Below, one piece after another: positions 49,386-64,000 of a stretch of 64,000 nt of DNA. Source of the stretch: an uncultured Planctomycetota bacterium. Lineage in GTDB: Bacteria > Planctomycetota > Planctomycetia > Isosphaerales > Isosphaeraceae. A program made the translations under genes and the position numbers. The stretch spans positions 1,920,001 to 1,984,000 of the forward strand of contig CAVTTN010000002.1 in NCBI GenBank assembly GCA_963737655.1, in the 5' to 3' direction. The notes under the pieces were generated by a model. It saw only the letters and a program-made list of their open reading frames with translations, did not search any database and was not told where the DNA came from. Every line of letters starts with the position of its first letter. Position 1 is the stretch's first letter.

Positions 49386-49565
49386 GGGGACCGTCGAGTG
49401 AGTCCTCAAGGATCGAGACTCGGGTGGCATGCTCACGTCTTTGCAACCAAGGATTCGGCCGGCTTCGAATGGAAGGCATGCTCACCTCTTGGTAAGCATG
49501 CAACCCGGCCAAAGAAAATCCTTGGAAGGCGAACTCGCCGTCGGCAAAATCAACAACCGGCCCGA

Positions 49566-49617
49566 GATTATGCATCCGAAACGACGTGATAAATCACGTC
49601 GTTTCGGATGCATAATC
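49566..49617. repeat. Perfect 25-bp inverted repeat with 2-nt loop
   Basis: GATTATGCATCCGAAACGACGTGAT-aa-ATCACGTCGTTTCGGATGCATAATC. Confidence 0.95.
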
Positions 49618-49639
49618 CCGCAAATTCGGAGATTCTGCG

Positions 49640-49668
49640 TCACTTTCGATGTCTACTTCATGTTAGGC
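49640..49668 (+). other. Putative attI site (array start)
   Basis: First GTTAGGC (49662-49668) opens a cassette but is not preceded by an attC hairpin. Confidence 0.6.
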
Positions 49669-49993
49669 GGCTCAGGAGTCGAAGCCTTCGGTCGTGCTCG
49701 TCGTCGGCCTCGCCGGTCGCGCCTCGGCTCGACGACGCCATCGGTCGGGCCCCTGGAGTCGGCCTCGGCGGTGGTGCGCGTCGTCGCCCTCGCCGGCCGC
49801 GCCCCGAGGTCGGGCCCGTCGGCCGGCGCCCCCCTTGCCAACGCCGTCGGTCCGTGCCAGGATCGTCGGTGTCGGCGCGTGGGGCGTCGCCGGGGCGCCG
49901 CCTAACCCGGCGCTGCAGCGGACCCGGCCCGCGGTCGACGATCACTCTCCTCTCAATCTCGCCGGGCGCGGGCCGGTCCGCTGAGCTTTGTCG
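49663..49993 (+). repeat. ORF-less cassette, copy 1 (attC 49900-49999)
   Basis: Near-identical to 51537-51867 and 52326-52656. Confidence 0.85.
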
Positions 49994-50147
49994 TTAGGCG
50001 TCGCGCCCTCGACACGGTTGGTTTGGCTCGTCGTCGAAGTCGCTGGGAGTGCCCCTGCTGTCAAAGTCTGTGGGTTGAGCTCCGGCTTCGCCGTCGCGAT
50101 GTTCGGTCATCGTCTCCAAAGGTCATCGTCGTCGCGGTCGGCCGCCT

Positions 50148-50526
50148 CTTCGTGAACTCTTTGGCTGGGAACGGCCATCGACGCGCGACACTACCCCAAC
50201 CCCAGGCTTTGTGGCCGGGCAGCGGCGAGGTCCGGGTAGCAAACCGACGGATTCAAGAGCGGCGGACGAGGCGCGGGCCGAGAGGGGAGTCGGTTACGCT
50301 TGCAGTCTCTTCGACGGGAACATCCCCGCGAGTCGGCTCGCGGGGCGTCGCCAATGACCGGATCACGACCTCTCGGGCCAGGCTAACCTACGGGCAGGGA
50401 GCACCAAGGTGGAGACGGCCGGGAGGCCCGCGCCACACTCAGGCTACGCCGCGCCGGGTCGGCGGGCAAGTCGTCCCCGACCCCCGTTCACGCCCCGTCG
50501 GGAGCGGACGAAGGCCGCAGGATGGT
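50148..50526 (-). mobile_element. 379-bp non-autonomous IS110 derivative, copy 1 (type A), in attC 50144-50623
   Basis: GCCT|CTTCGTGAAC...GGATGGT|TAACCTC; homologous to the ends of the IS110 at 53084-54866. Confidence 0.85.
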
Positions 50527-50648
50527 TAACCTCGCGCTGCAGCGGACCCGTCCCGCGGTTGACGATTTTTCTGGTGTCCAGCCCGCTGGCCGCGGGTCGG
50601 TCCGCTGAGCTTGGTCGTTAGGCGTATTAGGTCGATCGGAGGCTCTGG

Positions 50649-51059
50649 ATGCGCAGTAGAGTCCGCTATGTCAGTGGTTTGCTATCGCTGTCCGTGCTGA
50701 TCTTTACCTCGTGCAGACCGGAGCGACCGGCGGGCAGCGAGGCGGACGCGTGGCCATCCGACCAAGAGATCCTCGCCTACCTCGATGGCAAGACGATTTT
50801 CGAGCCCACGCCTGCCTCATCGGAGAAGGGAGGTAGTGTACCCCCGAAATCCTTCTTGCTGAAGGCAGGCAACATTTCCTCCTTGGAAGTGAAGAAGTCG
50901 GGGGTTGCTGTCTCGGGCGAGCCTTGGACGACGCCGATCCATTTCATCCTCGACGAGGGGGGGCGTAAATATGCCGTTGATGCCAGCGTCGATCACCGGA
51001 AAGTCGATAATAAACGGGCCTTCTTCGGGCTCAAGGCCGAGCGCATCGCTGAGCAGTGA
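50649..51059 (+). CDS. Cassette gene: putative lipoprotein
   Basis: GGAGG RBS, signal peptide ending FTSC. Confidence 0.75.
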   Translation: MRSRVRYVSGLLSLSVLIFTSCRPERPAGSEADAWPSDQEILAYLDGKTIFEPTPASSEKGGSVPPKSFLLKAGNISSLEVKKSGVAVSGEPWTTPIHFILDEGGRKYAVDASVDHRKVDNKRAFFGLKAERIAEQ

Positions 51060-51064
51060 CGCCT

Positions 51065-51443
51065 CTTCGTGAACTCTTTGGCTGGGAACGGCCATCGACG
51101 CGCGACACTACCCCAACCCCAGGCTTTGTGGCCGGGCAGCGGCGAGGTCCGGGTAGCAAACCGACGGATTCAAGAGCGGCGGACGAGGCGCGGGCCGAGA
51201 GGGGAGTCGGTTACGCTTGCAGTCTCTTCGACGGGAACATCCCCGCGAGTCGGCTCGCGGGGCGTCGCCAATGACCGGATCACGACCTCTCGGGCCAGGC
51301 TAACCTACGGGCAGGGAGCACCAAGGTGGAGACGGCCGGGAGGCCCGCGCCACACTCAGGCTACGCCGCGCCGGGTCGGCGGGCAAGTCGTCCCCGACCC
51401 CCGTTCACGCCCCGTCGGGAGCGGACGAAGGCCGCAGGATGGT
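51065..51443 (-). mobile_element. 379-bp IS110 derivative, copy 2 (type A), in attC 51061-51542
   Basis: Same junctions and sequence as copy 1. Confidence 0.85.
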
Positions 51444-51536
51444 TAACCTCGCGCTGCAGCGGACCCCGGCCACGGGCCGCGCTCCCCTCTTCCCTCAAGC
51501 TCACTGGTCCGTGGCCGGGTCCGCTGAGCTTTGGCG

Positions 51537-51867
51537 TTAGGCGGCTCAGGAGTCGAAGCCTTCGGTCGTGCTCGTCGTCGGCCTCGCCGGTCGCGCCTCG
51601 GCTCGACGACGCCATCGGTCGGGCCCCTGGAGTCGGCCTCGGCGGTGGTGCGCGTCGTCGCCCTCGCCGGCCGCGCCCCCGAGGTCGGGCCCGTCGGCCG
51701 GCGCCCCCCTTGCCAACGCCGTCGGTCCGTGCCAGGATCGTCGGTGTCGGCGCGTGGGGCGTCGCCGGGCGCCGCCTAACCCGGCGCTGCAGCGGACCCG
51801 GCCCGCGGTCGACGATCACTCTCCTCTCAATCTCGCCGGGCGCGGGCCGGTCCGCTGAGCTTTGTCG
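51537..51867 (+). repeat. ORF-less cassette, copy 2 (attC 51774-51873)
   Basis: Repeat of 49663-49993. Confidence 0.85.
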
Positions 51868-51890
51868 TTAGGCGGCGGGAGACTCCCGCG

Positions 51891-52211
51891 ATGGATTGGC
51901 TCGAACCGTGGTGCGATGTCGCCGACCTCGGCCCCGACTTCGCGGCTACATTCGAGCGGGTTCTGGCACGCGAGGTCGCGCCGGGCCATCCCCTCCACAG
52001 CATCCCGGTCGCGGCAGTCGGCAAGCGCGACGGCACCGACGACGTGCTCTTTCGGCTGCTCGACGGCTCGGAGCGTGTCGCCGCCGTGCACCTGACCTGG
52101 ACTCGCTCCCCTCCCGAGCGGCCACCCTGGCCGGCAACCGAACTGTTCGCCGACTTCGAGGCGTTCGCCCGGCACCAGATGCGGCCCGACCATGAGGAAT
52201 TCGTGACGTAG
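51891..52211 (+). CDS. Cassette gene: hypothetical protein (attC 52232-52331)
   Basis: GGGAG RBS; fills the cassette; REVAPGHPL..DDVLF..AAVHLTW. Confidence 0.8.
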   Translation: MDWLEPWCDVADLGPDFAATFERVLAREVAPGHPLHSIPVAAVGKRDGTDDVLFRLLDGSERVAAVHLTWTRSPPERPPWPATELFADFEAFARHQMRPDHEEFVT

Positions 52212-52325
52212 CGGCGGGCACAAGAGACGCCGCCTAACCCGGCGCTGCAGCGGACCCGGCCGCCGCGGTCGGTTTCTGGTAACATCAAGGTCACTGGTCG
52301 GCGGCCGGTCCGCTGAGCTTGGTCG

Positions 52326-52656
52326 TTAGGCGGCTCAGGAGTCGAAGCCTTCGGTCGTGCTCGTCGTCGGCCTCGCCGGTCGCGCCTCGGCTCGACGACG
52401 CCATCGGTCGGGCCCCTGGAGTCGGCCTCGGCGGTGGTGCGCGTCGTCGCCCTCGCCGGCCGCGCCCCCGAGGTCGGGCCCGTCGGCCGGCGCCCCCTTG
52501 CCAACGCCGTCGGTCCGTGCCAGGATCGTCGGTGTCGGCGCGTGGGGCGTCGCCGGGGCGCCGCCTAACCCGGCGCTGCAGCGGACCCGGCCCGCGGTCG
52601 ACGATCACTCTCCTCTCAATCTCGCCGGGCGCGGGCCGGTCCGCTGAGCTTTGTCG
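52326..52656 (+). repeat. ORF-less cassette, copy 3 (attC 52563-52662)
   Basis: Repeat of 49663-49993. Confidence 0.85.
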
Positions 52657-52680
52657 TTAGGCGGCTCGGAGGCAACCGCA

Positions 52681-53091
52681 ATGGCCGAGCCTTTCGACCG
52701 CATCGCCGCGCTGGGCGAGTTGCCCCCGACGCTCGCGGCACGCCTGCGGTTCCTCCCCGAGACCGATCGCTCCGTCATCGGCACCATCCGATGCGGCGTT
52801 CTGTTCGTCATGGCCTTCTGGAGCGGCCCCGCCCGGCTGGCCTTCGCCGAACTCAAGCGGGTGCTCGCGGCCGAGGACATCGCCGGCCGCTTAGAGTTGG
52901 TCGTCGTCGATACCGATGGCTGCCCCGACCTCCAGGATCAGCCCGAGTTCACCGGCAAGCTGCACGGCGCCGGCGAGGCCGCTTGGGTTAATCAGGGCGT
53001 CATTGTCTGCACGTCGGGCCTGGGCTATCATCCCGAGTGCTTCGGGCCGAATACGCGGCGCCTCCTGGGCGAATGCGCCGCCTCCCCGTGA
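52681..53091 (+). CDS. Cassette gene: hypothetical, possibly thioredoxin-like fold; stop codon supplied by the IS end
   Basis: GGAGG RBS; AFWSGPA and VVVDTD; ends GCC TCC CCG TGA. Confidence 0.7.
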   Translation: MAEPFDRIAALGELPPTLAARLRFLPETDRSVIGTIRCGVLFVMAFWSGPARLAFAELKRVLAAEDIAGRLELVVVDTDGCPDLQDQPEFTGKLHGAGEAAWVNQGVIVCTSGLGYHPECFGPNTRRLLGECAASP

Positions 53092-53243
53092 ACTCTTCGC
53101 GCCGGCGGTTCGGCATCGGTTGATACTATGTGGGCATGATCATCGATCGGCCCGCATCCCCCCCGGCCCCCGCGACGACGGGGACGGCCCGATCCGGCTC
53201 GGCGGGGCTTGCGGTCGGGCGCCCCGCCTCCGACCCGTCGCCC

Positions 53244-54596
53244 TCACGACGGCGGCGACGGCGGCGACTTCGCCACCAGCTCGTAGCCCAGCGACCTCGC
53301 CTTGCGCCGCAGCGACCGCTCCTGCTTCGCGCGCACCTCGGCCTCGTACTCCGCCAGCGACCTCGACACGTACTCCTCGCCGTGCCTGAGCATCCGGTAC
53401 ACCAGCCGCGACAGCTTGTGCGCCGTCGCCGTGATCGCCCCCCGGCCGCCGATCCGGCCCTTGATCCGCCGGTAGAACTGGCCCGTCGCCGTCGCCGTCC
53501 GGCCCGCCGCCTGCGCCGCCATCCGCAGCGCCTGACCCACCCGGTTCTTGCCCTTGCGGGGCGTGCGACGCCGCTCGGTCTTGTTGCTCCGGTCGGTCCG
53601 CGGGCAGAGGCCCAGCCAGCTGGCGAAGTGCTTCTCGCTCGGGAACCGCCCCACGTCGCCGCCGAGCTCGGCCAGGATCACCGTCGCCGTCGTCGCGTCG
53701 ATCCCCTCGATGGCCGTCAGGTCCACGCCGATCGCCCGGGCCAGCTTGGCCGGGGCGTCGAACCGCACGTCGTTGGCCTTGCGGCCGCGCTTGCGGGGCC
53801 TCGCCGCGATCGGCCGGCCTTCGGAGCGGTCGGGCAGGCGGTCCAGCTCCTCGGCGATCCGGGCGTCGCACTCGTCGACCTGGCGGTGGAGGTAGTGGTA
53901 CAGGTCGGACGCCTGCCTCAGGGCGAACAGGTGCTCGGGCCGCCAGGTGCCCTCCAGGGCCCGGGCGATCTCCGCCTCGTCCCGGGCGCACCGCTCGTGC
54001 CGCAGCGCGGCCAGCTTCGTGGCGTCCCGCTCGCCGGCGAGGATCGCGGCGATGATCGCCGTGCCGGTGACGCCCGTGATGCTGCTGACGACCTCGGTCA
54101 GCTTCACATTCATCTGCTCCAAAGCCTTCTGCATGTGCTGGACGTGGTGCGAGGCGTACCGCACGAGCATCTGCCGCTGCCGCCAGTAGCCGCGCAGGGC
54201 CAGGACGGCCCCGGGCGGGCGGAAGGACGGGCGGAGCAGGCCGCACGAGTGGAGGCGCTGGAGCCACTGGCAGTCGAGCCGGTCGGTCTTGGGCCGGGCG
54301 CCGCAGTGGCTGGCCTGGCTCGGCTCGATGAGGAAGACCTCGAAGCCGCGCGATTCGAGCAGCTCGAACAGGGGGATCCAGTAGACGCCGGTGGACTCCA
54401 GGACCACCGAGGTGACGCCCTCGGCCCGGAACCAATCGGCCAGGGCGTGGAGGTCGGCCGAGCAGGCGCCGAAGGTGCGGACCCGTCCGGGCCCGACGCA
54501 GGCGACGTGGTTGTCGGAGTGGACGTCGACGGCGGCGGCGTGGGGGTGGACGACCGGCAGGGACGCGTCGGGATCGGGGGGCGTGCGGCGACTCAT
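53244..54596 (-). CDS. IS110-family DEDD transposase/recombinase
   Basis: AVDVH, LESTGVYW, KTDRLD (DEDD); FPSEKHFASWLGLCP..S; AITATAHKL. Confidence 0.95.
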   Translation of the reverse strand: MSRRTPPDPDASLPVVHPHAAAVDVHSDNHVACVGPGRVRTFGACSADLHALADWFRAEGVTSVVLESTGVYWIPLFELLESRGFEVFLIEPSQASHCGARPKTDRLDCQWLQRLHSCGLLRPSFRPPGAVLALRGYWRQRQMLVRYASHHVQHMQKALEQMNVKLTEVVSSITGVTGTAIIAAILAGERDATKLAALRHERCARDEAEIARALEGTWRPEHLFALRQASDLYHYLHRQVDECDARIAEELDRLPDRSEGRPIAARPRKRGRKANDVRFDAPAKLARAIGVDLTAIEGIDATTATVILAELGGDVGRFPSEKHFASWLGLCPRTDRSNKTERRRTPRKGKNRVGQALRMAAQAAGRTATATGQFYRRIKGRIGGRGAITATAHKLSRLVYRMLRHGEEYVSRSLAEYEAEVRAKQERSLRRKARSLGYELVAKSPPSPPS

Positions 54597-54629
54597 GGCG
54601 AGGGCTCCGGCGGGTGGGGGGCCAAGCCG

Positions 54630-54800
54630 TCGCGGGCCGAGAGGGGGTCCGGGGACGAGGTAGTCTCCCCGACGGGAACGTCGCGGGGCCGTGTTGACAC
54701 GGCGCCGCGGGTCACCAATGATGGGGCCACGGCCTCTCGGGCCAAGCTAACCTGCGGGCGGCGAGCACCAGGGAGATGACGGCCGGGAGGCCCGCGGCGG
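54630..54800 (-). ncRNA. Predicted bridge/seek-type guide RNA region upstream of the transposase
   Basis: Stem CCGAGAGG(54637)/CCTCTCGG(54733), inner hairpin GCCGTGT/ACACGGC, CTAACCT matching the target, CTCCCCG matching the element end; boundaries approximate. Confidence 0.65.
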
Positions 54801-54980
54801 CGACGCCGATCGTACCGCGCCCCGGTTCACGTCCGTCGGGGAGCGGTCGCAGGCCGCGCGGAGAGTTAACCTCGCGCTGCAGCGGACCCCGGCCACGGGC
54901 CGCGCTTTCTCTTCTCTCGATGCTCGGTGGTCCGTGGCCGTGTCCGCTGAGCTTTGTCGTTAGGTGGCTCGGAGCTGTCA

Positions 54981-55367
54981 ATGCTCGTTGACTCATGCAT
55001 TCCGGTCATACCCAGCGCCGATCTGGAGAGGAGCCTGCGCTTCTGGGTGGATGGGCTTGGTCTGTCCATGGATCGTGCCATGCGGCACGACGGTCGCCTC
55101 GTCGGTTGTATGGTGCATAACGAGCGGCTGTATTTTTGGCTCAATCAACGAGCCGGTCCCCCGACCGCGTCGGAGAATTACGAGGGCATACGCCTCTACT
55201 GGACGCCAGGCAACATCAAGGCCATTAGGGAGCGTCTCCTGCGACTCGGTTACGCGGCTTCCGAGATTGAGGATCGTGAATATGGACAGGCCGAGTTCGT
55301 CGTCAAGGATGATGACGGGTACTCCCATTGCTTCGGAGTCGCTACAACAAGAGCGGCTAGCCTATGA
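54981..55367 (+). CDS. Cassette gene: VOC/glyoxalase/bleomycin-resistance family (attC 55381-55480)
   Basis: DLERSLRFWVDGLG; YGQAEFVVKDDDGY. Confidence 0.85.
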   Translation: MLVDSCIPVIPSADLERSLRFWVDGLGLSMDRAMRHDGRLVGCMVHNERLYFWLNQRAGPPTASENYEGIRLYWTPGNIKAIRERLLRLGYAASEIEDREYGQAEFVVKDDDGYSHCFGVATTRAASL

Positions 55368-55497
55368 CCGCAAGGGTGCCGCCTAACCCGGCGCTGCAGC
55401 GGACCCCGCACCGCCGCGGCGCCTGTTGTCTTATCATTGCTCGCTCGGCGGTGCGGGTCCGCTGAGCTTTTGCGTTAGGCGGCGGAGAGATTCCCCG

Positions 55498-55845
55498 TTG
55501 GCGATCGACAACCCAAACGTCATCGACCTAATCGGCACCGACCGGACGACCGGCGAGGCCGTGCTCACCATCAGCGATCACCTCGAATGGGACGACCGCA
55601 ACGAGCATCTGCTGATCTTGCAAGAGAAAATCAACCGCTACATCGGTTTCATCGAGTCTGGCGAACTGCTGGAAAACTACGCGGGTGCGGCGGGCCGACT
55701 GATCCGCGTCGAGGTCGTTTGCAAGTATCCGCCGAGTGAAGTCGGCGAGCGATTCCTGAACCTCGCCAGCGAAACGTTCGAGAAGGCCGGTTGGTCCCTC
55801 ACTTGGCGTTGGTGGCCGAGCAAGCAGCTCGACGCCTCTTCGTGA
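55498..55845 (+). CDS. Cassette gene: DUF6572-like protein
   Basis: VIDLIG..LTISDHLEW..HLLILQEKINRY..FIESGE; TTG start after GGAGA. Confidence 0.7.
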   Translation: MAIDNPNVIDLIGTDRTTGEAVLTISDHLEWDDRNEHLLILQEKINRYIGFIESGELLENYAGAAGRLIRVEVVCKYPPSEVGERFLNLASETFEKAGWSLTWRWWPSKQLDASS

Positions 55846-56216
55846 ACTCTTTGGCTGGGAACGGCCATCGACGCGCGACACTACCCCAACCCCAGGCTTT
55901 GTGGCCGGGCAGCGGCGAGGTCCGGGTAGCAAACCGACGGATTCAAGAGCGGCGGACGAGGCGCGGGCCGAGAGGGGAGTCGGTTACGCTTGCAGTCTCT
56001 TCGACGGGAACATCCCCGCGAGTCGGCTCGCGGGGCGTCGCCGATGACCGGATCACGACCTCTCGGGCCAGGCTAACCTACGGGCATGGAGCACCGAGGT
56101 GGATCCGGCCACCGACCCGCGCCACGAACCGGGCTACGCCGCGCCGGGTCGGTGGGCAAGTCGGCCCCGGCCCCCGTTCACGCCCCCTCGGGAGCGGACG
56201 AAGGCCGCAGGATGGT
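55838..56216 (-). mobile_element. 379-bp IS110 derivative, copy 3 (A/B hybrid), in attC 55834-56313
   Basis: Left half type A, right half type B. Confidence 0.85.
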
Positions 56217-56329
56217 TAACCTCGCGCTGCGGCGGACCCGGCCCGCCGCGGTGCTTTCCTGTGCTATCATCATTTCCTCGGCGGTGCGGGTCCGCTGAGT
56301 TTTGTCGTCAGGGGGATTGATCGTTTACC

Positions 56330-56609
56330 GTGACCAGCAGCCGTAAGATGTCTCAGCCCGAGTTCGATGAGTGGGCCCGCTCGCGCCGACTTGGCCCTTG
56401 GCGTCACGTCCTCGTTCGGGGCGTGCTCTCGAAGGGCCTACCAATCGGCGCCGGCTGGTTGCTCGGTCATTGGCTCGCGGGTACGCTGTCCTGGAGTTTT
56501 GCGATCTGCCTGCTCCTCATCATGATCGTTGCCGGTGCCGTCGATGGGGTTAGTCGATGGCGAGGAGGGCTCCCAATCGGCTCGGCGCGAGCACGCGGCC
56601 TCTTCGTGA
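56330..56609 (+). CDS. Cassette gene: small membrane protein (3' end uncertain, possible frameshift ~56565)
   Basis: Two hydrophobic segments; as assembled the ORF reads through into the element. Confidence 0.55.
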
Positions 56610-56980
56610 ACTCTTTGGCTGGGAACGGCCATCGACGCGCGACACTACCCCAACCCCAGGCTTTGTGGCCGGGCAGCGGCGAGGTCCGGGTAGCAAACCG
56701 ACGGATTCAAGAGCGGCGGACGAGGCGCGGGCCGAGAGGGGAGTCGGTTACGCTTGCAGTCTCTTCGACGGGAACATCCCCGCGAGTCGGCTCGCGGGGC
56801 GTCGCCAATGACCGGATCACGACCTCTCGGGCCAGGCTAACCTACGGGCAGGGAGCACCAAGGTGGAGACGGCCGGGAGGCCCGCGCCACACTCAGGCTA
56901 CGCCGCGCCGGGTCGGCGGGCAAGTCGTCCCCGACCCCCGTTCACGCCCCGTCGGGAGCGGACGAAGGCCGCAGGATGGT
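56602..56980 (-). mobile_element. 379-bp IS110 derivative, copy 4 (type A), in attC 56598-57077
   Basis: Same junctions. Confidence 0.85.
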
Positions 56981-57105
56981 TAACCTCGCGCTGCAGCGGA
57001 CCCCGCACCGCCGCGGCGATTCTTGTGTTATCATCGCGTTCTCGGCGGTGCGGGTCCGCTGAGCTTTGGCGTTAGGCGGCTCGGCGAAGATGCCTCGGGA
57101 CACCC

Positions 57106-57501
57106 GTGACGTTCGACCCCGACCGAATCATGACCCTCTCGACCATGCAGTTCCGACGTTTCGGAATCGCGTGCTGCTATCGGTTGGGGTGCGACCGCAA
57201 AGACAAGCGTCTCGCGAAGGCGCTCAAGAGACTGGAGCAATCGCTGGGGCCGCCGGCCGACGAGAGCATGCGTCGTGACGCGCTCAACGCCGCCAACTCC
57301 GCTTGCCGAGACCTCTCCGCAAGCAGCGGCGTGATACAGGTCGTTGCCCGCACCCTTGTTTGTGCCTGCTGGGACGGTCCCAATGAGAATCTGATTGGGA
57401 ATTTCGAAGCGGCGCTTGAACAAGGAGAGCACTTGAGCAGGTCCGAGATCAAGGACATTGAAAGCGAGATCTTTCGGGCTATCCTGGGCGCCTCTTCGTG
57501 A
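57106..57501 (+). CDS. Cassette gene: hypothetical protein
   Basis: Fills the cassette; ends GCC TCT TCG TGA. Confidence 0.65.
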   Translation: MTFDPDRIMTLSTMQFRRFGIACCYRLGCDRKDKRLAKALKRLEQSLGPPADESMRRDALNAANSACRDLSASSGVIQVVARTLVCACWDGPNENLIGNFEAALEQGEHLSRSEIKDIESEIFRAILGASS

Positions 57502-57872
57502 ACTCTTTGGCTGGGAACGGCCATCGACGCGCGACACTACCCCAACCCCAGGCTTTGTGGCCGGGCAGCGACGAAGTCCGGGTAGCAAACCGACGGATTC
57601 AAGAGCGGCGGACGAGGCGCGGGCCGAGAGGGGAGTCGGTTACGCTTGCAGTCTCTTCGGCGGGAACATCCCCGCGAGTCGGCTCGCGGGGCGTCGCCAA
57701 TGACCGGATCACGACCTCTCGGGCCAGGCTAACCTACGGGCAGGGAGCACCAAGGTGGAGACGGCCGGGAGGCCCGCGCCACACTCAGGCTACGCCGCGC
57801 CGGGTCGGCGGGCAAGTCGTCCCCGACCCCCGTTCACGCCCCGTCGGGAGCGGACGAAGGCCGCAGGATGGT
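57494..57872 (-). mobile_element. 379-bp IS110 derivative, copy 5 (type A with a few SNPs); downstream attC truncated after 57884
   Basis: TAACCTCGCGCT is followed by non-attC sequence. Confidence 0.85.
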
Positions 57873-57909
57873 TAACCTCGCGCTCGACACCCAAGCCGGA
57901 GCATGTTGC

Positions 57910-58701
57910 ATGCGCTCATTAAGATTTGTCGTTATTACACTGTCGTTGACGGTTCGGTTCGCACCGCTCTATGCCCAGACGCCTGGAAAAAAACCGCCGA
58001 GCCGGGTTGTTGGCAGCGTGTATGGGAAGGCCGTCACCGCGGACCAGGTTGGCCTGACCTTGCCGATCGACAACACCAAGAAATTCGATGCACGAGATAC
58101 ACCCGCGTGGGAACAGATGGAGCGGGTCGCGGTGGCGTTCGGTAGCCCGGTCATGGAGCGGTTGGTCGCGCAGCGGAAGCTCGACGCCACGGCCGACGAG
58201 ATGGCCGCGTACAGGAGGGTCAACCTGATATTGAAAGGGCAGATGCTACGCGAGACGGAAGCTCGTTTGACGAAGGTCAAGGAGGAACTCGCGTCGCCCC
58301 ACCTGTCGGATGGAAGGAAAGCGGAACTGGAGAAAGAACGAGAGACGTTCGAACAGAGCCTCCCGGCGCAGCGCGAATCCGCCAGGCGTAATGACGACGA
58401 TGATGATGCTTTCGGTCGCGGGCTCATCCTCTCCTGGAAGGTCGAGCGGGAGCTGTACCGGACCTACGGCGGTCGCTTGATCTGGCAGCAATTCGGTATC
58501 GAGGCGCTCGACGCCCGCCGCCTGCTGTTCGAGGAAGCGGAGAAGAAGGGTGACCTGAAGTTCGACGATCCGGGGGTGCGGCGTCTATTTTATTACTACT
58601 CCAACATGCCTCACACTTTCGTCGGTGAGAAGGAACCAAGATTGCTGGAAGAGAAGCCTTGGTTCCTGAAGGATGGGGACGAACCGCTCCCCGAGAAGTG
58701 A
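57910..58701 (+). CDS. Cassette gene: secreted hypothetical protein (attC 58765-58865)
   Basis: Signal-like N-terminus; LYRTYGGRLIWQQFG. Confidence 0.75.
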   Translation: MRSLRFVVITLSLTVRFAPLYAQTPGKKPPSRVVGSVYGKAVTADQVGLTLPIDNTKKFDARDTPAWEQMERVAVAFGSPVMERLVAQRKLDATADEMAAYRRVNLILKGQMLRETEARLTKVKEELASPHLSDGRKAELEKERETFEQSLPAQRESARRNDDDDDAFGRGLILSWKVERELYRTYGGRLIWQQFGIEALDARRLLFEEAEKKGDLKFDDPGVRRLFYYYSNMPHTFVGEKEPRLLEEKPWFLKDGDEPLPEK

Positions 58702-58885
58702 GTGATGGGGCCGCGGCCGGAATCGAGGACATGGCGGATTTTGGCCCTAACCCGCTATGTCATGGCCTGACCTCGCGCTGCAGCGGACCCCGCACCGCCG
58801 CGGCGCCTTCTGGTAGAATCAACGCTGCTCGGGCGGTGCGGGTCCGCTGAGCTTCGGCGTGAGGCGGCGGAGGGAGGCCGATCCC

Positions 58886-59332
58886 ATGGAAGTCGTGAAA
58901 TCCAACCGCTACGGGCCGCTGGAGCCTGCTCGACTCGAAGCGTTCGAATCCCTGATCGGGTCGCGTTTCCCGGGAGACTTCCGTCAGTTCCTCCTCGACC
59001 ATAATGGCGGTCGACCCGCCTTCGATCACCTCCTCGATGCCGAGCGGGACGACTCGTTGGCGTGCCTGAACAGCACTTACGGGCTGCACGACGGACCGGA
59101 GTATTGCCGCATGGACTCGACCTTCGACACGCTCCGTGATGTGCTGCCGGCCGGCCTCATCTCCTTCGGCGACGATCCGGGAGGGAACCTCTTCTGCATC
59201 GGGGTCGCCGGGGAGTATCGAGGCCGGGTTTATTTGTGGGACCACGAGACGGCGGAACCCAAGCTGCTGGGAGAATCGTTCGAGGAGTTCCTGTCGCGTT
59301 TGGGCCCCGATCCCTGGGACGCCTCTTCGTGA
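58886..59332 (+). CDS. Cassette gene: SMI1/KNR4 (SUKH) family protein
   Basis: FPGDFRQFLLDHNGG; FGDDPGGNLFC; VYLWDHE; ESFEEFL. Confidence 0.9.
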   Translation: MEVVKSNRYGPLEPARLEAFESLIGSRFPGDFRQFLLDHNGGRPAFDHLLDAERDDSLACLNSTYGLHDGPEYCRMDSTFDTLRDVLPAGLISFGDDPGGNLFCIGVAGEYRGRVYLWDHETAEPKLLGESFEEFLSRLGPDPWDASS

Positions 59333-59703
59333 ACTCTTCTCCATCGAACGGCCGTCGATGCGCGACATTCCCCCGACCCCTGGCCGTGTGGCCGGGCAGC
59401 GACGAGGTCCGGGTGGCAATCCGACGGATTCGGGATCGGCGATCGAGGCGCGGGCCGAGAGGGGAATCGGTTACGTTCGGAGTCTCTTCGACGGGGACAT
59501 CCCCGCGAGTCGCCGCGCGGGGCGTCGCCGATGACCGGATCACGACCTCTCGGGCCAGGCTAACCTACGGGCATGGAGCACCGAGGTGGATCCGGCCACC
59601 GACCCGCGCCACGAACCGGGCTACGCCGCGCCGAGTCGGTGGGCAAGTCGGCCCCGGCCCCCGTTCACGCCCCCTCGGGAGCGGACGAAGGCCGCAGGAT
59701 GGT
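59325..59703 (-). mobile_element. 379-bp IS110 derivative, copy 6 (divergent type B), in attC 59321-59801
   Basis: Same length and ends, many internal substitutions; putative guides unchanged. Confidence 0.85.
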
Positions 59704-59883
59704 TAACCTCGCGCTGCGGCGGACCCCGCACTGCCGCTACACTTTCTGCTACGATCAACGTCGCTCGGGCGGTGCGAGGCCGCTGAGCTTGGGCGTTAGG
59801 CGGCGTCGCGGTCGGCCAGAATGTGACGAACTCGCGGAGCGTGGAACGCAGGCCGCGCGGAAACCGATCGTGAGGTTAGCGAC

Positions 59884-60399
59884 ATGAAGCTGAATGTTTC
59901 CAGCCTCGCCTTCGCCCGACACCGAGACGAAGTGCCCGCGCGGTGGCTCCTCGATATCCTCTGGCTCGTCCTCGCCTCCGGCGAGGACACGAATGGCGAG
60001 TATTCCGTCATCGAGCAGTTCATGCCCGTCGGGTCCGGCCCGCCGCCGCACGGGCATCCGTTCGAGGACGAGATGTTCTACGTCCTGGCCGGGGAGATGA
60101 CCGTCATCGTCGGCGGGCAGGAGATCGTCTTGAAGCCCGGCAGCCTGGGCCACGTCCCGCGCAACGTCGTCCACGAATTCAAGGTGACCGGCACCGACGT
60201 GTGCCATTGCCTGAACTACTACACCCCCGCCGGGTTCGAGCAGTCGGTCCTCGGGTGTTCGCGGCCCGCGGAACGGCGCGAGTTGCCCCCGCCCGGGCTG
60301 GACCCGCTTGACTCTCCGCAGGTGATGCAATTCTTCAACAACTACTGGGTCGCCGGGGCAACGCTCCCCTGGGCCCAGCAGAAGTGGTCGCCCGGTTGA
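59884..60399 (+). CDS. Cassette gene: cupin-domain protein (degenerate attC 60492-60592)
   Basis: GPPPHGHPFEDEMFYVLAGE; VPRNVVHEF. Confidence 0.9.
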   Translation: MKLNVSSLAFARHRDEVPARWLLDILWLVLASGEDTNGEYSVIEQFMPVGSGPPPHGHPFEDEMFYVLAGEMTVIVGGQEIVLKPGSLGHVPRNVVHEFKVTGTDVCHCLNYYTPAGFEQSVLGCSRPAERRELPPPGLDPLDSPQVMQFFNNYWVAGATLPWAQQKWSPG

Positions 60400-60607
60400 G
60401 CGCCAAGCGGCACGCGCCCATGCCGGTTGGGCCGGAAAACCGCATCCCGGAGTGCCGGGGCCTCGACGCCTTCCCGCTGGCGGAGGGCGGCGCCGAAACT
60501 GGCGCGGGAGCGGACCCGGCCGCCGCGATTGGTTTCTGGTAATATTCTAAGTCGCAGGCCGGCGGCCGGTCCGCGGAGCTTCGGCGTTAGGCGGCGAGGC
60601 GCGACCG

Positions 60608-61057
60608 ATGGCGAAGGGACTGCCGGGGACGGTCGCCGTCAACCACGACGATTACCACGCCGAATACGTCGGGCGAACCAAGGACGGCGCGCAATTCTTC
60701 CTCACGACGCCCTTCGTGCCGGGGGTCGGAGACCAGCCGGGCCGGGAGTTCATCGCGCTCTACCTGTTCGACAAGGCTGGCCAACTCCAGGCGGCCACGA
60801 TCGACGACCTGGGGCCTCGCGAGACGATGGATCTGGGGGCGAGGATGGCCCGCCGAGACGAGTTGCTCGCCTCGCTGGGTGAGGTCAGCTATCAGCGAAT
60901 CAAAGTCGCCCCGTTTCGGATCGAGAGGTTCGGGGTTGAGTTCGGGTTCATCCCGCAGCCGCCCGAGGAGCCGGGCGAGGACTGGAGCGTCATCGTGATG
61001 CCGGGAGACGTCATGTGCTTCTGGCCGCCTTGGTCCAGCGGCGACTACGATACGTAA
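60608..61057 (+). CDS. Cassette gene: hypothetical protein (attC 61067-61167)
   Basis: GAGG RBS; fills the cassette. Confidence 0.8.
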   Translation: MAKGLPGTVAVNHDDYHAEYVGRTKDGAQFFLTTPFVPGVGDQPGREFIALYLFDKAGQLQAATIDDLGPRETMDLGARMARRDELLASLGEVSYQRIKVAPFRIERFGVEFGFIPQPPEEPGEDWSVIVMPGDVMCFWPPWSSGDYDT

Positions 61058-61185
61058 TGCCGCGACGCCTAACCTGGCGCGGCGTCGGACCCCGCACCGC
61101 CGCGGCGCGTTCTGCTACGATCGAAGGCCGCTCGGGCGGGTGGGTCTGCTGAGCTTTGGCGTTTGGCGGCTCGGAGGGTCAGGCG

Positions 61186-61521
61186 TTGGAGGAGGCGTGT
61201 CCCCTCGAAGAAAAGCTGTCCAATGTCGCAGCCGACCTGCTGTCCGAGCGGCGGTTCGAGGCATTCGTCCGCCGCCTGTTCGCGGCCCCTCCCGGCGTGT
61301 GGCAGGGCGTGGCGGCCTGCTGCTCAAGCATGCCGGTGCTGCCGGGCCTCGCCGCCGAGGTCTTCGCCGGCCACGCCGAGTGCTTCGTGGTCACGCATCT
61401 GCCATGGCCCGGCCTTCCCTCCCGCGATCCCTACGCTCTGGTGCTGTTCCTGCACGCCGATATCATGTGGTCCACCACCGCGTTGTACAATCGCGCCGTG
61501 TTCGGGGCCGACTCTTCGTGA
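61186..61521 (+). CDS. Cassette gene: hypothetical protein
   Basis: TTG after GGAGG; ends GAC TCT TCG TGA. Confidence 0.55.
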   Translation: MEEACPLEEKLSNVAADLLSERRFEAFVRRLFAAPPGVWQGVAACCSSMPVLPGLAAEVFAGHAECFVVTHLPWPGLPSRDPYALVLFLHADIMWSTTALYNRAVFGADSS

Positions 61522-61892
61522 ACTCTTTGGCTGGGAACGGCCATCGACGCGCGACACTACCCCAACCCCAGGCTTTGTGGCCGGGCAGCGGCGAGGTCCG
61601 GGTAGCAAACCGACGGATTCAAGAGCGGCGGACGAGGCGCGGGCCGAGAGGGGAGTCGGTTACGCTTGCAGTCTCTTCGACGGGAACATCCCCGCGAGTC
61701 GGCTCGCGGGGCGTCGCCAATGACCGGATCACGACCTCTCGGGCCAGGCTAACCTACGGGCAGGGAGCACCAAGGTGGAGACGGCCGGGAGGCCCGCGCC
61801 ACACTCAGGCTACGCCGCGCCGGGTCGGCGGGCAAGTCGTCCCCGACCCCCGTTCACGCCCCGTCGGGAGCGGACGAAGGCCGCAGGATGGT
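61514..61892 (-). mobile_element. 379-bp IS110 derivative, copy 7 (type A), in attC 61510-61988
   Basis: GACT|CTTCG...GGATGGT|TAACCTC. Confidence 0.85.
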
Positions 61893-62004
61893 TAACCTCG
61901 CGCTGCAGCCGACCCCACCCGCCGCGGCGGTTTTCGGTATAGTCGATGTCGCTCGGGCGGGTGGGTCTGCTGAGCTTTGGCGTTAGGCCCAAGGAGGGCG
62001 GGTC

Positions 62005-62775
62005 GTGGCTCGGAAGCGGAAGAGCACCCCCGGTCCGTACTTGTTGTACCTTGAGGTCCTCCGCGGTCGCATCCCGGACGTCAGCCGCTTCCCGTACAAC
62101 CTGCCCGCCTTCCGCGCCCTGACGACGCTGCCGTTCCATCCCAAGGTGACGTTCCTCGTCGGGGAGAACGGGTCCGGCAAATCGACACTCCTGGAGGCCG
62201 TCGCCGTCGAGTGCGGGTTGAATCCCGAAGGCGGCAGCCGGAACTTCCACTTCGCCACGCGGGCCTCGCACTCGTCGCTCGACGAATGCGTTCGGCTCGC
62301 GAAGGCCCCGGCTTCGCCCGGCGACTGGTACTTCTTGCGGGCCGAGAGCTTTTACAACGTGGCTTCGGAGATCGAACGTCTCGACGAGGGACCGGGAGGC
62401 GGGCCGATCATCGGTGCCTACGGCGGCAAGTCGCTCCACGAGCAGTCGCACGGGGAGTCTTTTTTCGCCCTGTTCCAGAACCGGTTCCGGGACCATGGGC
62501 TGTACCTGATGGATGAGCCGGAGGCCGCGTTGTCGCCGAAGCGGCAACTCCAATTCCTCGCATTGCTCCACGACTACGTGTGCCGGGGCGGGCAGTTCGT
62601 CATCGCCACGCACTCACCGATCATCATGGCGTACCCCGAATCGCGCATCTATTTGCTGGACGGCGAGGGTATCCGGGAGATTGCTTACACGGACACCGAG
62701 CACTACCAGATCACTCGGGGATTCCTGAGCAACCCGCAGCGGTCGCTGTCGGTGCTGCTCGGTGAGGAGCGATAA
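62005..62775 (+). CDS. Cassette gene: stand-alone ABC/AAA-type ATPase (attC ~62780-62883)
   Basis: GENGSGKST, SHGESF, LMDEPEAALSP, IATHSP. Confidence 0.92.
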   Translation: MARKRKSTPGPYLLYLEVLRGRIPDVSRFPYNLPAFRALTTLPFHPKVTFLVGENGSGKSTLLEAVAVECGLNPEGGSRNFHFATRASHSSLDECVRLAKAPASPGDWYFLRAESFYNVASEIERLDEGPGGGPIIGAYGGKSLHEQSHGESFFALFQNRFRDHGLYLMDEPEAALSPKRQLQFLALLHDYVCRGGQFVIATHSPIIMAYPESRIYLLDGEGIREIAYTDTEHYQITRGFLSNPQRSLSVLLGEER

Positions 62776-62899
62776 ATAGGCCCAGCCTCGCGCCGCTGCA
62801 GCGGACCCGGCCCACCTCCTCGCTTTCTGGTAACATGAAGGTCACTCTCGGCGGCGCGGGTCCGCTGAGCTTGGGCGTTAGGCGTGTCGCGAAAGCACA

Positions 62900-63469
62900 A
62901 TGAGCGAACCGAGACTTACATTCGCAACGCAATCCGAGTGGGAAGACTGGCTTGAAGCCAATGGCAGCACTTCGCCCGGCGTGTGGCTTCGCTTGGCGAA
63001 GAAGTCTGCCGAGCAACCAACGGTCACTTATGCACAAGCGCGAGAAAGCGCTCTTTGCCACGGGTGGATCGATGGCCAAAAGCAATCGGAAAACCAGCAC
63101 TATTGGCTTCAGCGCTTTACACCGAGAACTGCCAAGAGCATCTGGTCGAAGATCAACAAGGAAAAGGCGGAGGCACTCATCACATCGCAACGGATGCGGG
63201 CAGCAGGTCTGGTCGCGATAGAACGGGCAAAATCGGACGGAAGATGGGATGCGGCATACTCATCGGCGAGCACTTCGACCGTCCCTGACGACCTGCAAGA
63301 AGCCCTTGATGCAAACCCAAGAGCCAAAACGTTTTTTGCGACGCTCAATAGCCAAAATAGGTATGCCATCTTGTTTCGAATTCAAAAAGTCAAGAAGGCC
63401 GAGACACGGGCGAAGAAGATCGCTCAATTCATTGAAATGCTCAATGATGGCGAAAAGCTCTATCCATAA
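62900..63469 (+). CDS. Cassette gene: YdeI/OmpD-associated family protein (attC 63554-63658)
   Basis: ALCHGWIDG, RFTPR..SIWSKIN, VPDDL, KKAETRAKKI. Confidence 0.9.
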   Translation: MSEPRLTFATQSEWEDWLEANGSTSPGVWLRLAKKSAEQPTVTYAQARESALCHGWIDGQKQSENQHYWLQRFTPRTAKSIWSKINKEKAEALITSQRMRAAGLVAIERAKSDGRWDAAYSSASTSTVPDDLQEALDANPRAKTFFATLNSQNRYAILFRIQKVKKAETRAKKIAQFIEMLNDGEKLYP

Positions 63470-63674
63470 CGAAGCCTGTCTAGTTGATGCAGAAAAGTTT
63501 ATCAAAATGATACATGTTAAATATTGATACTTGTCATAGACTGCGAGCGTCCCGCCTGACCTCGCGCCGCAGCGGACCCGGCCCGCCGCGGCGCCCGCTG
63601 GGGATGCGTAGGACAGACTCGGCGGGCCGGTCAGGTCCTCTGAGCTTGATCGTTAGGCGGCAGGAGACCCCACG

Positions 63675-64000
63675 GTGGACGAGCCTGGGTTTTGGAAGAT
63701 CATCGATGCGGCCGGGCGAGCAGCCCACAGTGACCCCGAGCGGCAACTCTCCGCCGTCCGCAAGCGGTTGAGCGATCTCGCGCCGAGGAACTGGTCGAGT
63801 TCCACGCGATCTTCAACCGCAAATTGGCCGAAGCCTATACCTGGGACCTCTGGGGCGCCGCCTATCTCATCAACGGTGGGTGTTCTGATGATGGCTTCGC
63901 CTACTTCCGGGCCTGGCTTATCTCATGTGGTCAATCCGTCTACTCTTCAGCCCTCCGCAAACCCGACTCACTGTCGAGCATCGTCGATCCCGATCGCGAC
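63675..64000 (+). CDS. Cassette gene: DUF4240-like protein (frameshift ~63785; 3' partial)
   Basis: FWKIIDAA then LWGAAYLINGGCSDDGFAYFRAWLI. Confidence 0.8.
   Translation, partial: MDEPGFWKIIDAAGRAAHSDPERQLSAVRKRLSDLAPRNWSSSTRSSTANWPKPIPGTSGAPPISSTVGVLMMASPTSGPGLSHVVNPSTLQPSANPTHCRASSIPIA

What the first reader, a model, noticed from the sequence alone, without database searches (positions are those of the whole stretch)
53080..54873. Putative donor guide co-varies with each element's own end, while the target guide matches attC
Seen: the IS junction reads CTCCCCG (53082-53088) and its non-coding region contains agtCTCCCCGacggg (54662-54676). The mini-element junction reads CTCTTCG and the aligned internal position reads agtCTCTTCGacggg in both types A and B (copy 5 has a flanking SNP). 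Both elements keep CTAACCT (54747-54753 in the IS), identical to the target GC-CTAACCT-C. On the transposase-sense strand the target match precedes the donor match, as in the IS621 bridge RNA. The inner hairpin differs in sequence (GCCGTGT/ACACGGC vs CCCCGCGAG/CTCGCGGGG) but keeps its pairing and position. Inference: a natural two-base reprogramming of the donor guide, so the mini-element specifies itself as donor. This would explain why it must keep its own RNA.
Basis: partly seen in the sequence, partly recalled or inferred. Interest (0 to 1): 0.85.

Follow-up and report, generated by a model that had tools for sequence, protein, structure and literature searches.

The report
Gene-less transposon with its own guide
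A small gene-less jumping element in a bacterial gene-cassette array keeps its own guide RNA, whose self-recognition letters match its own end rather than the end of the full-size element it probably borrows its enzyme from, suggesting a parasite that may redirect an RNA-guided recombinase toward copying itself.

Summary
The window holds an intact IS110 element and seven copies of a 380-bp gene-less relative; the genome holds 6 and 28. All sit at one position in attC sites. Each carries a two-loop bridge-RNA-like region.

Donor guide and element end co-vary across homologues: 35 of 39 distinct RNAs match their own end, against a shuffled mean of 5.8. All 13 guide types match only their own end.

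The GAAG mini lineage occurs in three genomes, each also holding a GGGG-type IS or its remnant.

The inference that the mini 'must keep' its RNA is weak:
- Other minis keep the RNA with an unchanged guide.
- A remote autonomous IS110 also uses GAAG.
- The IS guide can probably still pair with the mini end by two G·T wobbles, while the mini guide meets two A·C mismatches on the IS end.

Best reading: a non-autonomous bridge-RNA element, possibly a one-way parasite of the transposase. Covariation itself is known (Durrant 2024), and MITEPpu9 is a close precedent. Expression and activity are untested. New variant; interest 0.62.

The parts
53084..54867 (-). IS110-group insertion sequence (1784 bp including one core), inserted in the R'' box of an attC site
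   Evidence: junctions identical in 8 of 8 IS-derived genome copies with differing flanks; 3 identical and 3 at 96.5-96.6% full copies
53244..54596 (-). IS110 DEDD transposase/recombinase, 450 aa (P0001); D24, E67, D105, D108, S337
   Evidence: PF01548 + PF02371, NF033542 over cut-off, aligns to IS621 8wt6, motif positions
54631..54793 (-). predicted bridge RNA core of the IS: target loop then donor loop
   Evidence: alignment A2, consensus fold and pair counts; expression not shown
54747..54753 (-). target guide, pairs with core CT + AACCT of attC
   Evidence: 33 of 33 scored occupied sites have AACCT, against 10 of 26 empty sites; covaries with left junctions in homologues
54665..54671 (-). 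IS donor guide (CGGGGAG on the RNA strand), pairs with the IS end at 53082-53088
53082..53088 (+). core CT + first 5 bp of the IS end (donor half-site read by the RNA)
53093..53099 (+). internal perfect match to the mini's donor guide, 11 bp inside the IS end, without the adjacent inverted-repeat arm
   Evidence: 8 of 8 IS-derived copies; function unknown
53087..53093 (+). sub-terminal inverted-repeat arm; partner at 54825-54831; also present in every window mini
54694..54722 (+). sigma70-like antisense promoter (TTGACA-17-AATGAT) whose -35 lies in the inner hairpin 54688-54703; absent from GAAG minis
   Evidence: 1 found, 0.1 expected; kept in 4 of 4 CGGGG-type IS tested and 0 of 4 GAAG minis; activity not shown
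54866..54872 (+). other junction: donor core TT followed by target AACCT
   Evidence: 36 of 36 genome copies
50148..50527 (-). mini element copy 1 (type A, 380 bp, no transposase remnant); donor guide 50307-50313, target guide 50383-50389, weak TTGCCC-17-TAGCCT promoter-like site 50441-50469
51065..51444 (-). mini copy 2 (type A)
55838..56217 (-). mini copy 3 (A/B chimera)
56602..56981 (-). mini copy 4 (type A)
57494..57873 (-). mini copy 5 (type A, SNP flanking the donor guide)
59325..59704 (-). mini copy 6 (type B)
61514..61893 (-). mini copy 7 (type A)
49896..64000 (+). attC cassette array hosting all eight elements; no integrase next to it; the genome's IntI is at C2:6777135-6778073 beside another array with the same elements
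   Evidence: repeat family D4, 17 copies; TIGR02249; attC box pattern recognised from recalled knowledge

Best explanation
The 380-bp element is a non-autonomous IS110-group element that encodes its own bridge RNA and is moved in trans by the co-resident GGGG-type transposase. SHOWN (sequence): two-loop RNA scaffold; a 7-nt 3'-side guide in each loop; the target guide reads CT-AACCT in attC; the donor guide reads the element's own end; donor core TT and target core CT; the strand carrying CT is antisense to the transposase, so these 7-mers correspond to IS621's right-hand guides (RTG, RDG). INFERRED: the RNA is made and loads the transposase; the circle recombines with attC 3' of the core on the CT strand, which gives exactly the CT and TT junctions seen; the far end of the donor is read mainly by protein (sub-terminal inverted repeat), since the 5' side of the donor loop barely matches it. 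INFERRED, weaker (about 0.4): the G-to-A change is one-way. Mini RNA cannot act on the IS end (two A·C mismatches), while IS RNA can still partly act on the mini (two G·T wobbles). Every transposase loaded with mini RNA is then lost to the IS, which would help 28 minis outnumber 6 IS.
For: Covariation 35 of 39, and 13 of 13 guide types on their own end with 0 of 156 cross-matches. Within the mini lineage guide and end change together (CGAAGAG in G000 and G003, TGAAGAG in L001) at about 80% scaffold identity. Scaffold: 10 of 21 pairs have two-sided changes, covariation score above 500 of 500 shuffles. Target rule: 33 of 33 occupied against 10 of 26 empty sites, Fisher p=5e-8; the 13 CTAACCC sites, which would be an A·C mismatch, are all empty. 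14 of 28 minis are identical, so amplification is recent. All 3 genomes with GAAG minis hold a CGGGG-type IS, intact in G000 and G061 and a remnant in G003. No transposase with a GAAG guide in G000. RNA:RNA proxy energies: IS guide on own end -13.9 and on mini end -8.1; mini guide on own end -9.4 and on IS end -2.9 kcal/mol.
Against: No expression, binding or recombination data. Whole-region folding is not better than shuffles (z about -1.3). In single-sequence folds the donor guide is no more open than average over 41 RNAs (0.38 against 0.38), and the IS guide is mostly paired (0.18). The energies use G·U in RNA as a stand-in for G·T in an RNA:DNA hybrid and probably overstate cross-pairing; in IS621 double mismatches were poorly tolerated (PMC11208160, passages; tested there for the target loop). 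G000 is 87.7% complete, so a missing GAAG helper cannot be excluded. The mini's sense promoter match is only 7 of 12, missed the scan threshold and did not pass my filter in type B. Copy number can reflect small size alone.
Confidence: 0.72

Rival explanations
1. Strict two-way orthogonality: neither RNA reads the other's end, so the mini depends on its own RNA.
For: Perfect guide-end match in 28 of 28 minis; 0 of 156 cross-matches between guide types; reprogrammed IS621 donor loops did not recombine the wild-type donor (PMC11208160, passage).
Against: Both differences are rG:dT from the IS side; 3 of 3 natural non-core donor mismatches in this clade are rG:dT (L026, L048, L192), and the guide's G already faces T in the TT core. 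Minis with unchanged guides keep the RNA too, so retention does not need this cause.
Confidence: 0.3
2. The RNA is a relic of a lost autonomous GAAG parent; the minis are moved mainly by the IS's own RNA through wobble pairing.
For: GAAG exists in an autonomous IS110 (L106); a GAAG-type end follows a transposase remnant 87% identical to the G002 IS (L094); the RNA lies inside the left non-coding end and survives any internal deletion.
Against: Scaffold, inner hairpin pairing, both guides and a TTGCCY-17-TAGYCT site are kept across minis only about 80% alike, and guide and end changed together between minis. A relic should decay.
Confidence: 0.12
3. The mini has its own RNA, but its helper is another transposase: the second IS110 of the genome (C2:4847xxx, 33% identical) or a GAAG-type IS missing from the assembly.
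For: That second IS110 has an open frame, a similar target loop and also sits in an attC-like site; the assembly is incomplete.
Against: It has a different end motif, donor-loop scaffold and donor 7-mer. The mini shares scaffold, inverted repeat and left-end hairpin with the GGGG IS, and type A shares a 19-nt patch with it. No GAAG autonomous element was found in 121 family or 401 phylum genomes searched.
Confidence: 0.1
4. The internal 7-mers are chance or DNA-level repeats, not RNA guides.
For: The 7-mer class is at chance frequency in the window; weak folding z-scores; no Rfam match beyond two chance-level miRNA hits.
Against: Position-specific covariation of both loops with two different DNA sites across distant lineages, upstream of an IS110 recombinase.
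Confidence: 0.03

Closest known systems
IS621 bridge RNA system (PMC11208160, PMC11208158; passages and one section read)
   Same: IS110 DEDD recombinase, RNA upstream of the gene, target loop before donor loop, guides include the core, CT/TT cores, natural RNA-donor covariation (2,201 pairs there).
   Different: Here the CT strand is antisense to the transposase; recognition is concentrated in the 3'-side 7-mers, with a weak 5'-side target guide and little 5'-side donor guide; the transposase is 450 aa; there is a 7-bp asymmetric sub-terminal inverted repeat; the target is attC. The term 'non-autonomous' does not occur in PMC11208160's main text.
MITEPpu9/ssr9 of ISPpu9, Pseudomonas putida (PMC12288879; abstract, Introduction, first part of Discussion and passages read)
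   Same: AG-core IS110-group element with an antisense RNA over its 5' region, and a gene-less mini that makes an sRNA complementary to that antisense RNA, has ends with 1-3 mismatches to the IS and often sits in tandem behind it.
   Different: The paper treats Ssr9 as a selfish or regulatory sRNA, not as a bridge RNA, and does not examine guide-end matching in the parts read. It finds mixed-end circles, i.e. cross-use of ends. It lists 8 copies in REP sites, against 28 in attC here with a distinct donor guide.
IS1111-attC elements such as ISKpn4 and ISPst6 (PMC11187229; passages read)
   Same: RNA-guided insertion at one end of attC sites; sub-terminal inverted repeats.
   Different: Their RNA lies downstream of the gene; here it is upstream, and the 450-aa size fits the IS110 subgroup range given there (395-455 aa).
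Non-coding repeat units beside IS110 transposases (bioRxiv 10.64898/2026.08.14.744561; section 8 and passages read)
   Same: Gene-less units with IS110 donor boundaries accumulating next to IS110 loci (n=468 there).
   Different: Described as local tandem expansion matching the host's guide; not as dispersed minis with their own RNA and donor code.

Membership tests
IS110 family | DEDD RuvC-like domain plus Transposase_20 domain with catalytic DEDD and serine | tested here: met
IS110 family | Site-specific insertion at a core dinucleotide, no terminal inverted repeats, no target duplication beyond the core | tested here: met
   36 of 36 junction pairs, CT on one side and TT on the other
IS110 group (versus IS1111 group) | Guide RNA upstream of the transposase | tested here: met
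IS1111-attC group | Guide RNA downstream of the transposase | tested here: not met
   the RNA model hits only upstream in the IS copies
IS1111-attC group | Sub-terminal inverted repeats near both ends | tested here: inconclusive
   7-bp inverted repeat, abutting one end but about 35 bp inside the other
Bridge RNA | Two internal loops, target loop then donor loop | tested here: met
   consensus fold and pair counts; single-sequence folds do not reproduce the open IS donor loop
Bridge RNA | Donor guide co-varies with element end | tested here: met
   35 of 39; 13 of 13 types
Bridge RNA | Target guide co-varies with target | tested here: met
Bridge RNA | Bipartite guides (left and right) in each loop | tested here: inconclusive
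   target loop 5' strand 1.82 of 4 matches against 0.98 (p=0.0002, n=29); donor loop 5' strand 0.81 against 0.94 at the same register and 1.32 against 0.95 at one of five offsets (uncorrected p=0.006, n=25)
Bridge RNA | RNA is expressed, binds the recombinase and is needed for recombination | not testable with these tools
   no experimental data available
Non-autonomous IS110 derivative (MITEPpu9 kind) | No transposase, shares end features with an autonomous partner, dispersed multicopy | tested here: met
MITE in the strict sense | Terminal inverted repeats and target-site duplication | tested here: not met

The most novel reading that the evidence does not exclude
The mini is a guide-RNA parasite. 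It expresses its own bridge RNA from an internal promoter, has shed the antisense control kept by the IS, and carries a donor guide changed in the one direction (G to A) that shuts out the helper's end while the helper's RNA can still serve it. That would be competition between a transposon and its parasite fought in the guide sequence. Bridge-RNA minis would be a recurrent class, seen here in two IS110 subfamilies.
Probability: 0.35. Interest if true: 0.82.

Novelty: new variant of a known kind. Interest (0 to 1): 0.62.

Why it matters
It gives a natural, same-genome test of donor programmability: one predicted recombinase, one target and two RNAs with two donor codes. It makes testable how gene-less elements exploit RNA-guided transposases: by borrowing the whole complex or by supplying their own guide. 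It suggests MITEPpu9's Ssr9 should be re-read as a bridge RNA (inference, not tested). It also adds an upstream-RNA IS110 clade that targets attC and has hit 33 of the 59 attC sites scored in this genome, which could affect cassette mobility. For bridge-recombinase engineering it points to a clade with short, mostly one-sided guides and to G·T tolerance as a source of one-way cross-talk.

Tried and rejected
1. Counting the bare 7-mer: at chance level, uninformative.
2. Single-strand folding: z about -1.3, and the IS donor guide falls in a stem; only the comparative fold is informative.
3. First alignment had wrong coordinates for L106; redone.
4. Search for an autonomous GAAG parent. Metagenome pattern scan: 8 loci, of which 1 is real (L106) and 7 are unrelated matches. 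Family-level scan of 121 genomes: only minis in G000 and G003. Phylum sample of 401 genomes: G000 plus 2 hits that lack the scaffold. A loose end pattern in 5 genomes was noisy; of 11 follow-up regions none held the RNA or a transposase, and about 4 were right-end fragments of GGGG type.
5. L106 as direct parent: rejected (61% scaffold identity, different left end).
6. RNA scaffold tree: short alignment, type A looks recombinant, and it cannot place the origin of GAAG.
7. Sequencing runs: no RNA holder was listed; this is no evidence either way.
8. Rfam: only two chance-level miRNA matches.
9. No transposase of this clade was found with P0001 in G014 or G085, which hold unchanged-guide minis (60% and 96% complete, 'not found with this query').
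10. Literature searches found no paper describing a gene-less IS110 element with its own, differently programmed bridge RNA. The library lacks most subscription journals and ISfinder, and no supplementary files were read (bioRxiv ones are closed), so such a case could be listed there.
11. No protein fold or complex was run; neither would decide the question.

Full report
OBSERVATION. The element at 53084-54867 carries a 450-aa IS110 transposase on the minus strand. Its catalytic residues align with IS621. The genome holds 6 full copies, 2 broken ones and 28 copies of a 380-bp gene-less relative, 7 of them in the window. In 36 of 36 copies one junction reads CT plus the element end (CCCCG in 8 of 8 IS-derived copies, CTTCG in 28 of 28 minis) and the other reads TT plus AACCT. 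The sites are attC boxes of cassette arrays (box pattern recalled). An integron integrase lies beside another such array in the genome. The minis hold no transposase remnant (3 of 3 tested).

IS IT MORE THAN CHANCE? The 7-mer alone is not; its position is. I collected 79 homologous loci (the best 80 of 213 hits) and added 8 elements by hand. My pattern parsed 62 of these 87, giving 43 distinct RNAs, 39 with enough downstream DNA. In 35 of 39 the donor guide recurs at the element's end. Shuffling guides among elements gave a mean of 5.75 and a maximum of 15 in 20,000. Taking one element per guide type, 13 of 13 match their own end and 0 of 156 match another. Of the 4 misses, L015 and L077 appear to be broken copies (related copies of the same genomes match), and L026 and L048 have a single G-for-A difference. 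The 25 unparsed loci include L106 and the type B mini, which match on inspection. Related elements share guides, so the count of 35 overstates independence; the 13 types are the fairer figure. The target guide also co-varies. Within the genome 33 of 33 scored occupied sites have AACCT, against 10 of 26 empty ones (p=5e-8); 3 of the 36 insertions fell outside my attC pattern.

RNA ANATOMY. The consensus of 41 sequences has two loops of the same build, each with a short conserved hairpin followed by the 7-mer in unpaired columns. With a closing helix that I added, 92% of cells pair, 10 of 21 pairs show two-sided changes, and no shuffle reaches the covariation score (related sequences inflate this). 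Against: single-sequence folding is unremarkable and buries the IS donor guide (0.18 unpaired; minis 0.47-0.69; mean over 41 RNAs equal to background). The CT-bearing strand is antisense to the transposase. [quoted passage not shown] IS621 cuts 3' of the core on that strand and accepts TT cores (PMC11208158, passages). Applied here, a TT donor and a CT target give exactly the two junctions seen (inference). The 5' side of the target loop matches the other target half weakly but significantly; the 5' side of the donor loop hardly matches the left end. A 7-bp sub-terminal inverted repeat shared by IS and mini may be read by protein (inference).

WHAT THE MINI IS. It is an old lineage, not a cut-down copy of the resident IS: scaffold identity is 73.5% to the IS and 80-89% to other GAAG minis, including those in G003 and L001. 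G003 has 4 matches, 1 complete and 3 cut by contig ends. In L001 guide and end both read TGAAGAG, a matched change within the mini lineage. All three genomes also hold a CGGGG-type IS or its remnant. G000's only other IS110, 33% identical, has different ends and donor loop. So the GGGG transposase is the likely helper.

(a) Keeping the RNA is common among minis of this clade. A model search of 121 family genomes hit 42; I fetched 40 regions around those hits. They included gene-less elements with RNA, own end and a guide identical to autonomous relatives: L182 (with such an IS in the same genome), L183 and L184 (two near-identical copies at different sites), L186 and L188. A second subfamily also has RNA-bearing minis (L194, L195, L197-L201). 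(b) GAAG is not private to minis. L106 is an autonomous IS110 (60% identical protein) with CGAAGAG in guide and end, though too remote to be the parent. In G002 a GAAG-type end follows a transposase remnant of the same clade (87% to the G002 IS, 82% to the window IS); this may be a parent's relic or a chimera. Most near autonomous relatives have YGGGG, so GAAG is probably derived, but in which element is open. (c) The exclusion is probably one-way. IS guide on mini end means two G·T wobbles; mini guide on IS end means two A·C mismatches. All 3 imperfect non-core donor pairs seen in this clade are rG:dT, and the 13 attC sites that would give an A·C mismatch to the target guide are all empty. 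Proxy energies agree but are RNA:RNA. One second-subfamily element (G140) shows an rC:dA mismatch at the outermost guide position, so A·C-type mismatches are not absolutely excluded.

THE INNER HAIRPIN. In the IS the hairpin holds the -35 of an antisense sigma70-like promoter, kept in 4 of 4 CGGGG-type IS tested and 0 of 4 GAAG minis. Three of 4 GAAG minis instead show TTGCCY-17-TAGYCT upstream of the RNA (7 of 12, weak; type B fails). ISPpu9 has an antisense RNA over the same region (PMC12288879, Introduction).

MECHANISM. The mini transcribes its bridge RNA, loads the resident transposase, excises or copies out as a circle through its donor guide, and inserts at CT-AACCT in attC. Steps shown: sequence matches, covariation, target rule, recent amplification. 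Steps inferred: expression, loading, helper identity, asymmetry. Donor-loop-only excision reported for IS621 (10.64898/2026.08.31.748434, abstract and Discussion) would make the donor guide the deciding step, which fits.

NOVELTY. Guide-donor covariation across IS110 orthologues is published (PMC11208160). IS110 minis are known, and MITEPpu9 makes an sRNA complementary to its helper's antisense RNA (PMC12288879). RNA-guided attC targeting is known for IS1111 elements (PMC11187229, passages). For 10.64898/2026.10.21.760802 I saw passages only, with no hit for 'non-autonomous', 'MITE', 'orphan' or 'attC'; for PMC13626964 the abstract only; for PMC10969869 passages. Eight searches found no description of a mini with its own, differently programmed bridge RNA. 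Supplements were not read. Two earlier notes of this scan report IS110 minis elsewhere (unchecked). Verdict: real, well supported as sequence, a new variant of a known kind; interest 0.62.

Noticed in passing
G000 C2:4847xxx (outside window); fragment at C2:287101-287334: A second IS110 (33% identical) in an attC-like site, with a similar target loop and a third donor code (AGAACAG in RNA and end). Three attC-associated elements with three donor codes share this genome.
   Followed up: partly
L194, L195, L197-L201 (G066, G014, G140, G102): Gene-less, RNA-bearing minis of that second subfamily; in G140 they sit in inverted pairs with the autonomous element.
   Followed up: partly
L001:1810-2230: GGGG IS directly followed by a GAAG mini, with an AA core at the join. 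It may be an IS inserted into the mini's left junction, which still resembles the target. This mini's target guide has two extra bases. The 2.3-kb contig carries an actinobacterial label and may be mis-binned.
   Followed up: partly
window 50410-50432 versus 54774-54796: Type A minis share a 19-nt patch with the resident IS that type B and foreign minis lack, suggesting recombination between IS and mini. The copy at 55838 is an A/B chimera.
   Followed up: partly
window 53093-53099: A perfect match to the mini's donor guide 11 bp inside the IS end; similar tandem 7-mers occur at the ends of L001, L006 and others.
   Followed up: no
window about 50185-50197; L001, L005, L183, L194 and others: A G-run motif (GGGG-N2-4-GGGG on the sense strand) 40-100 bp inside the right end is kept in IS and minis of both subfamilies.
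   Followed up: no
window 49563-49620: A 28-bp near-perfect inverted repeat just before the first cassette of the array.
   Followed up: no
G000 C2:1680649-1681650 and 6791943-6792596; L111, L129, L131: Broken IS copies are interrupted by short purine/pyrimidine tandem repeats of another repeat family.
   Followed up: no
window 49644-49900, 51518-51770, 52307-52560: One GC-rich cassette with no obvious gene is present three times in the array.
   Followed up: no
L111 (G002): A mini-type right end reading TGCAGAG, whose RNA is lost; a possible further donor code.
   Followed up: partly
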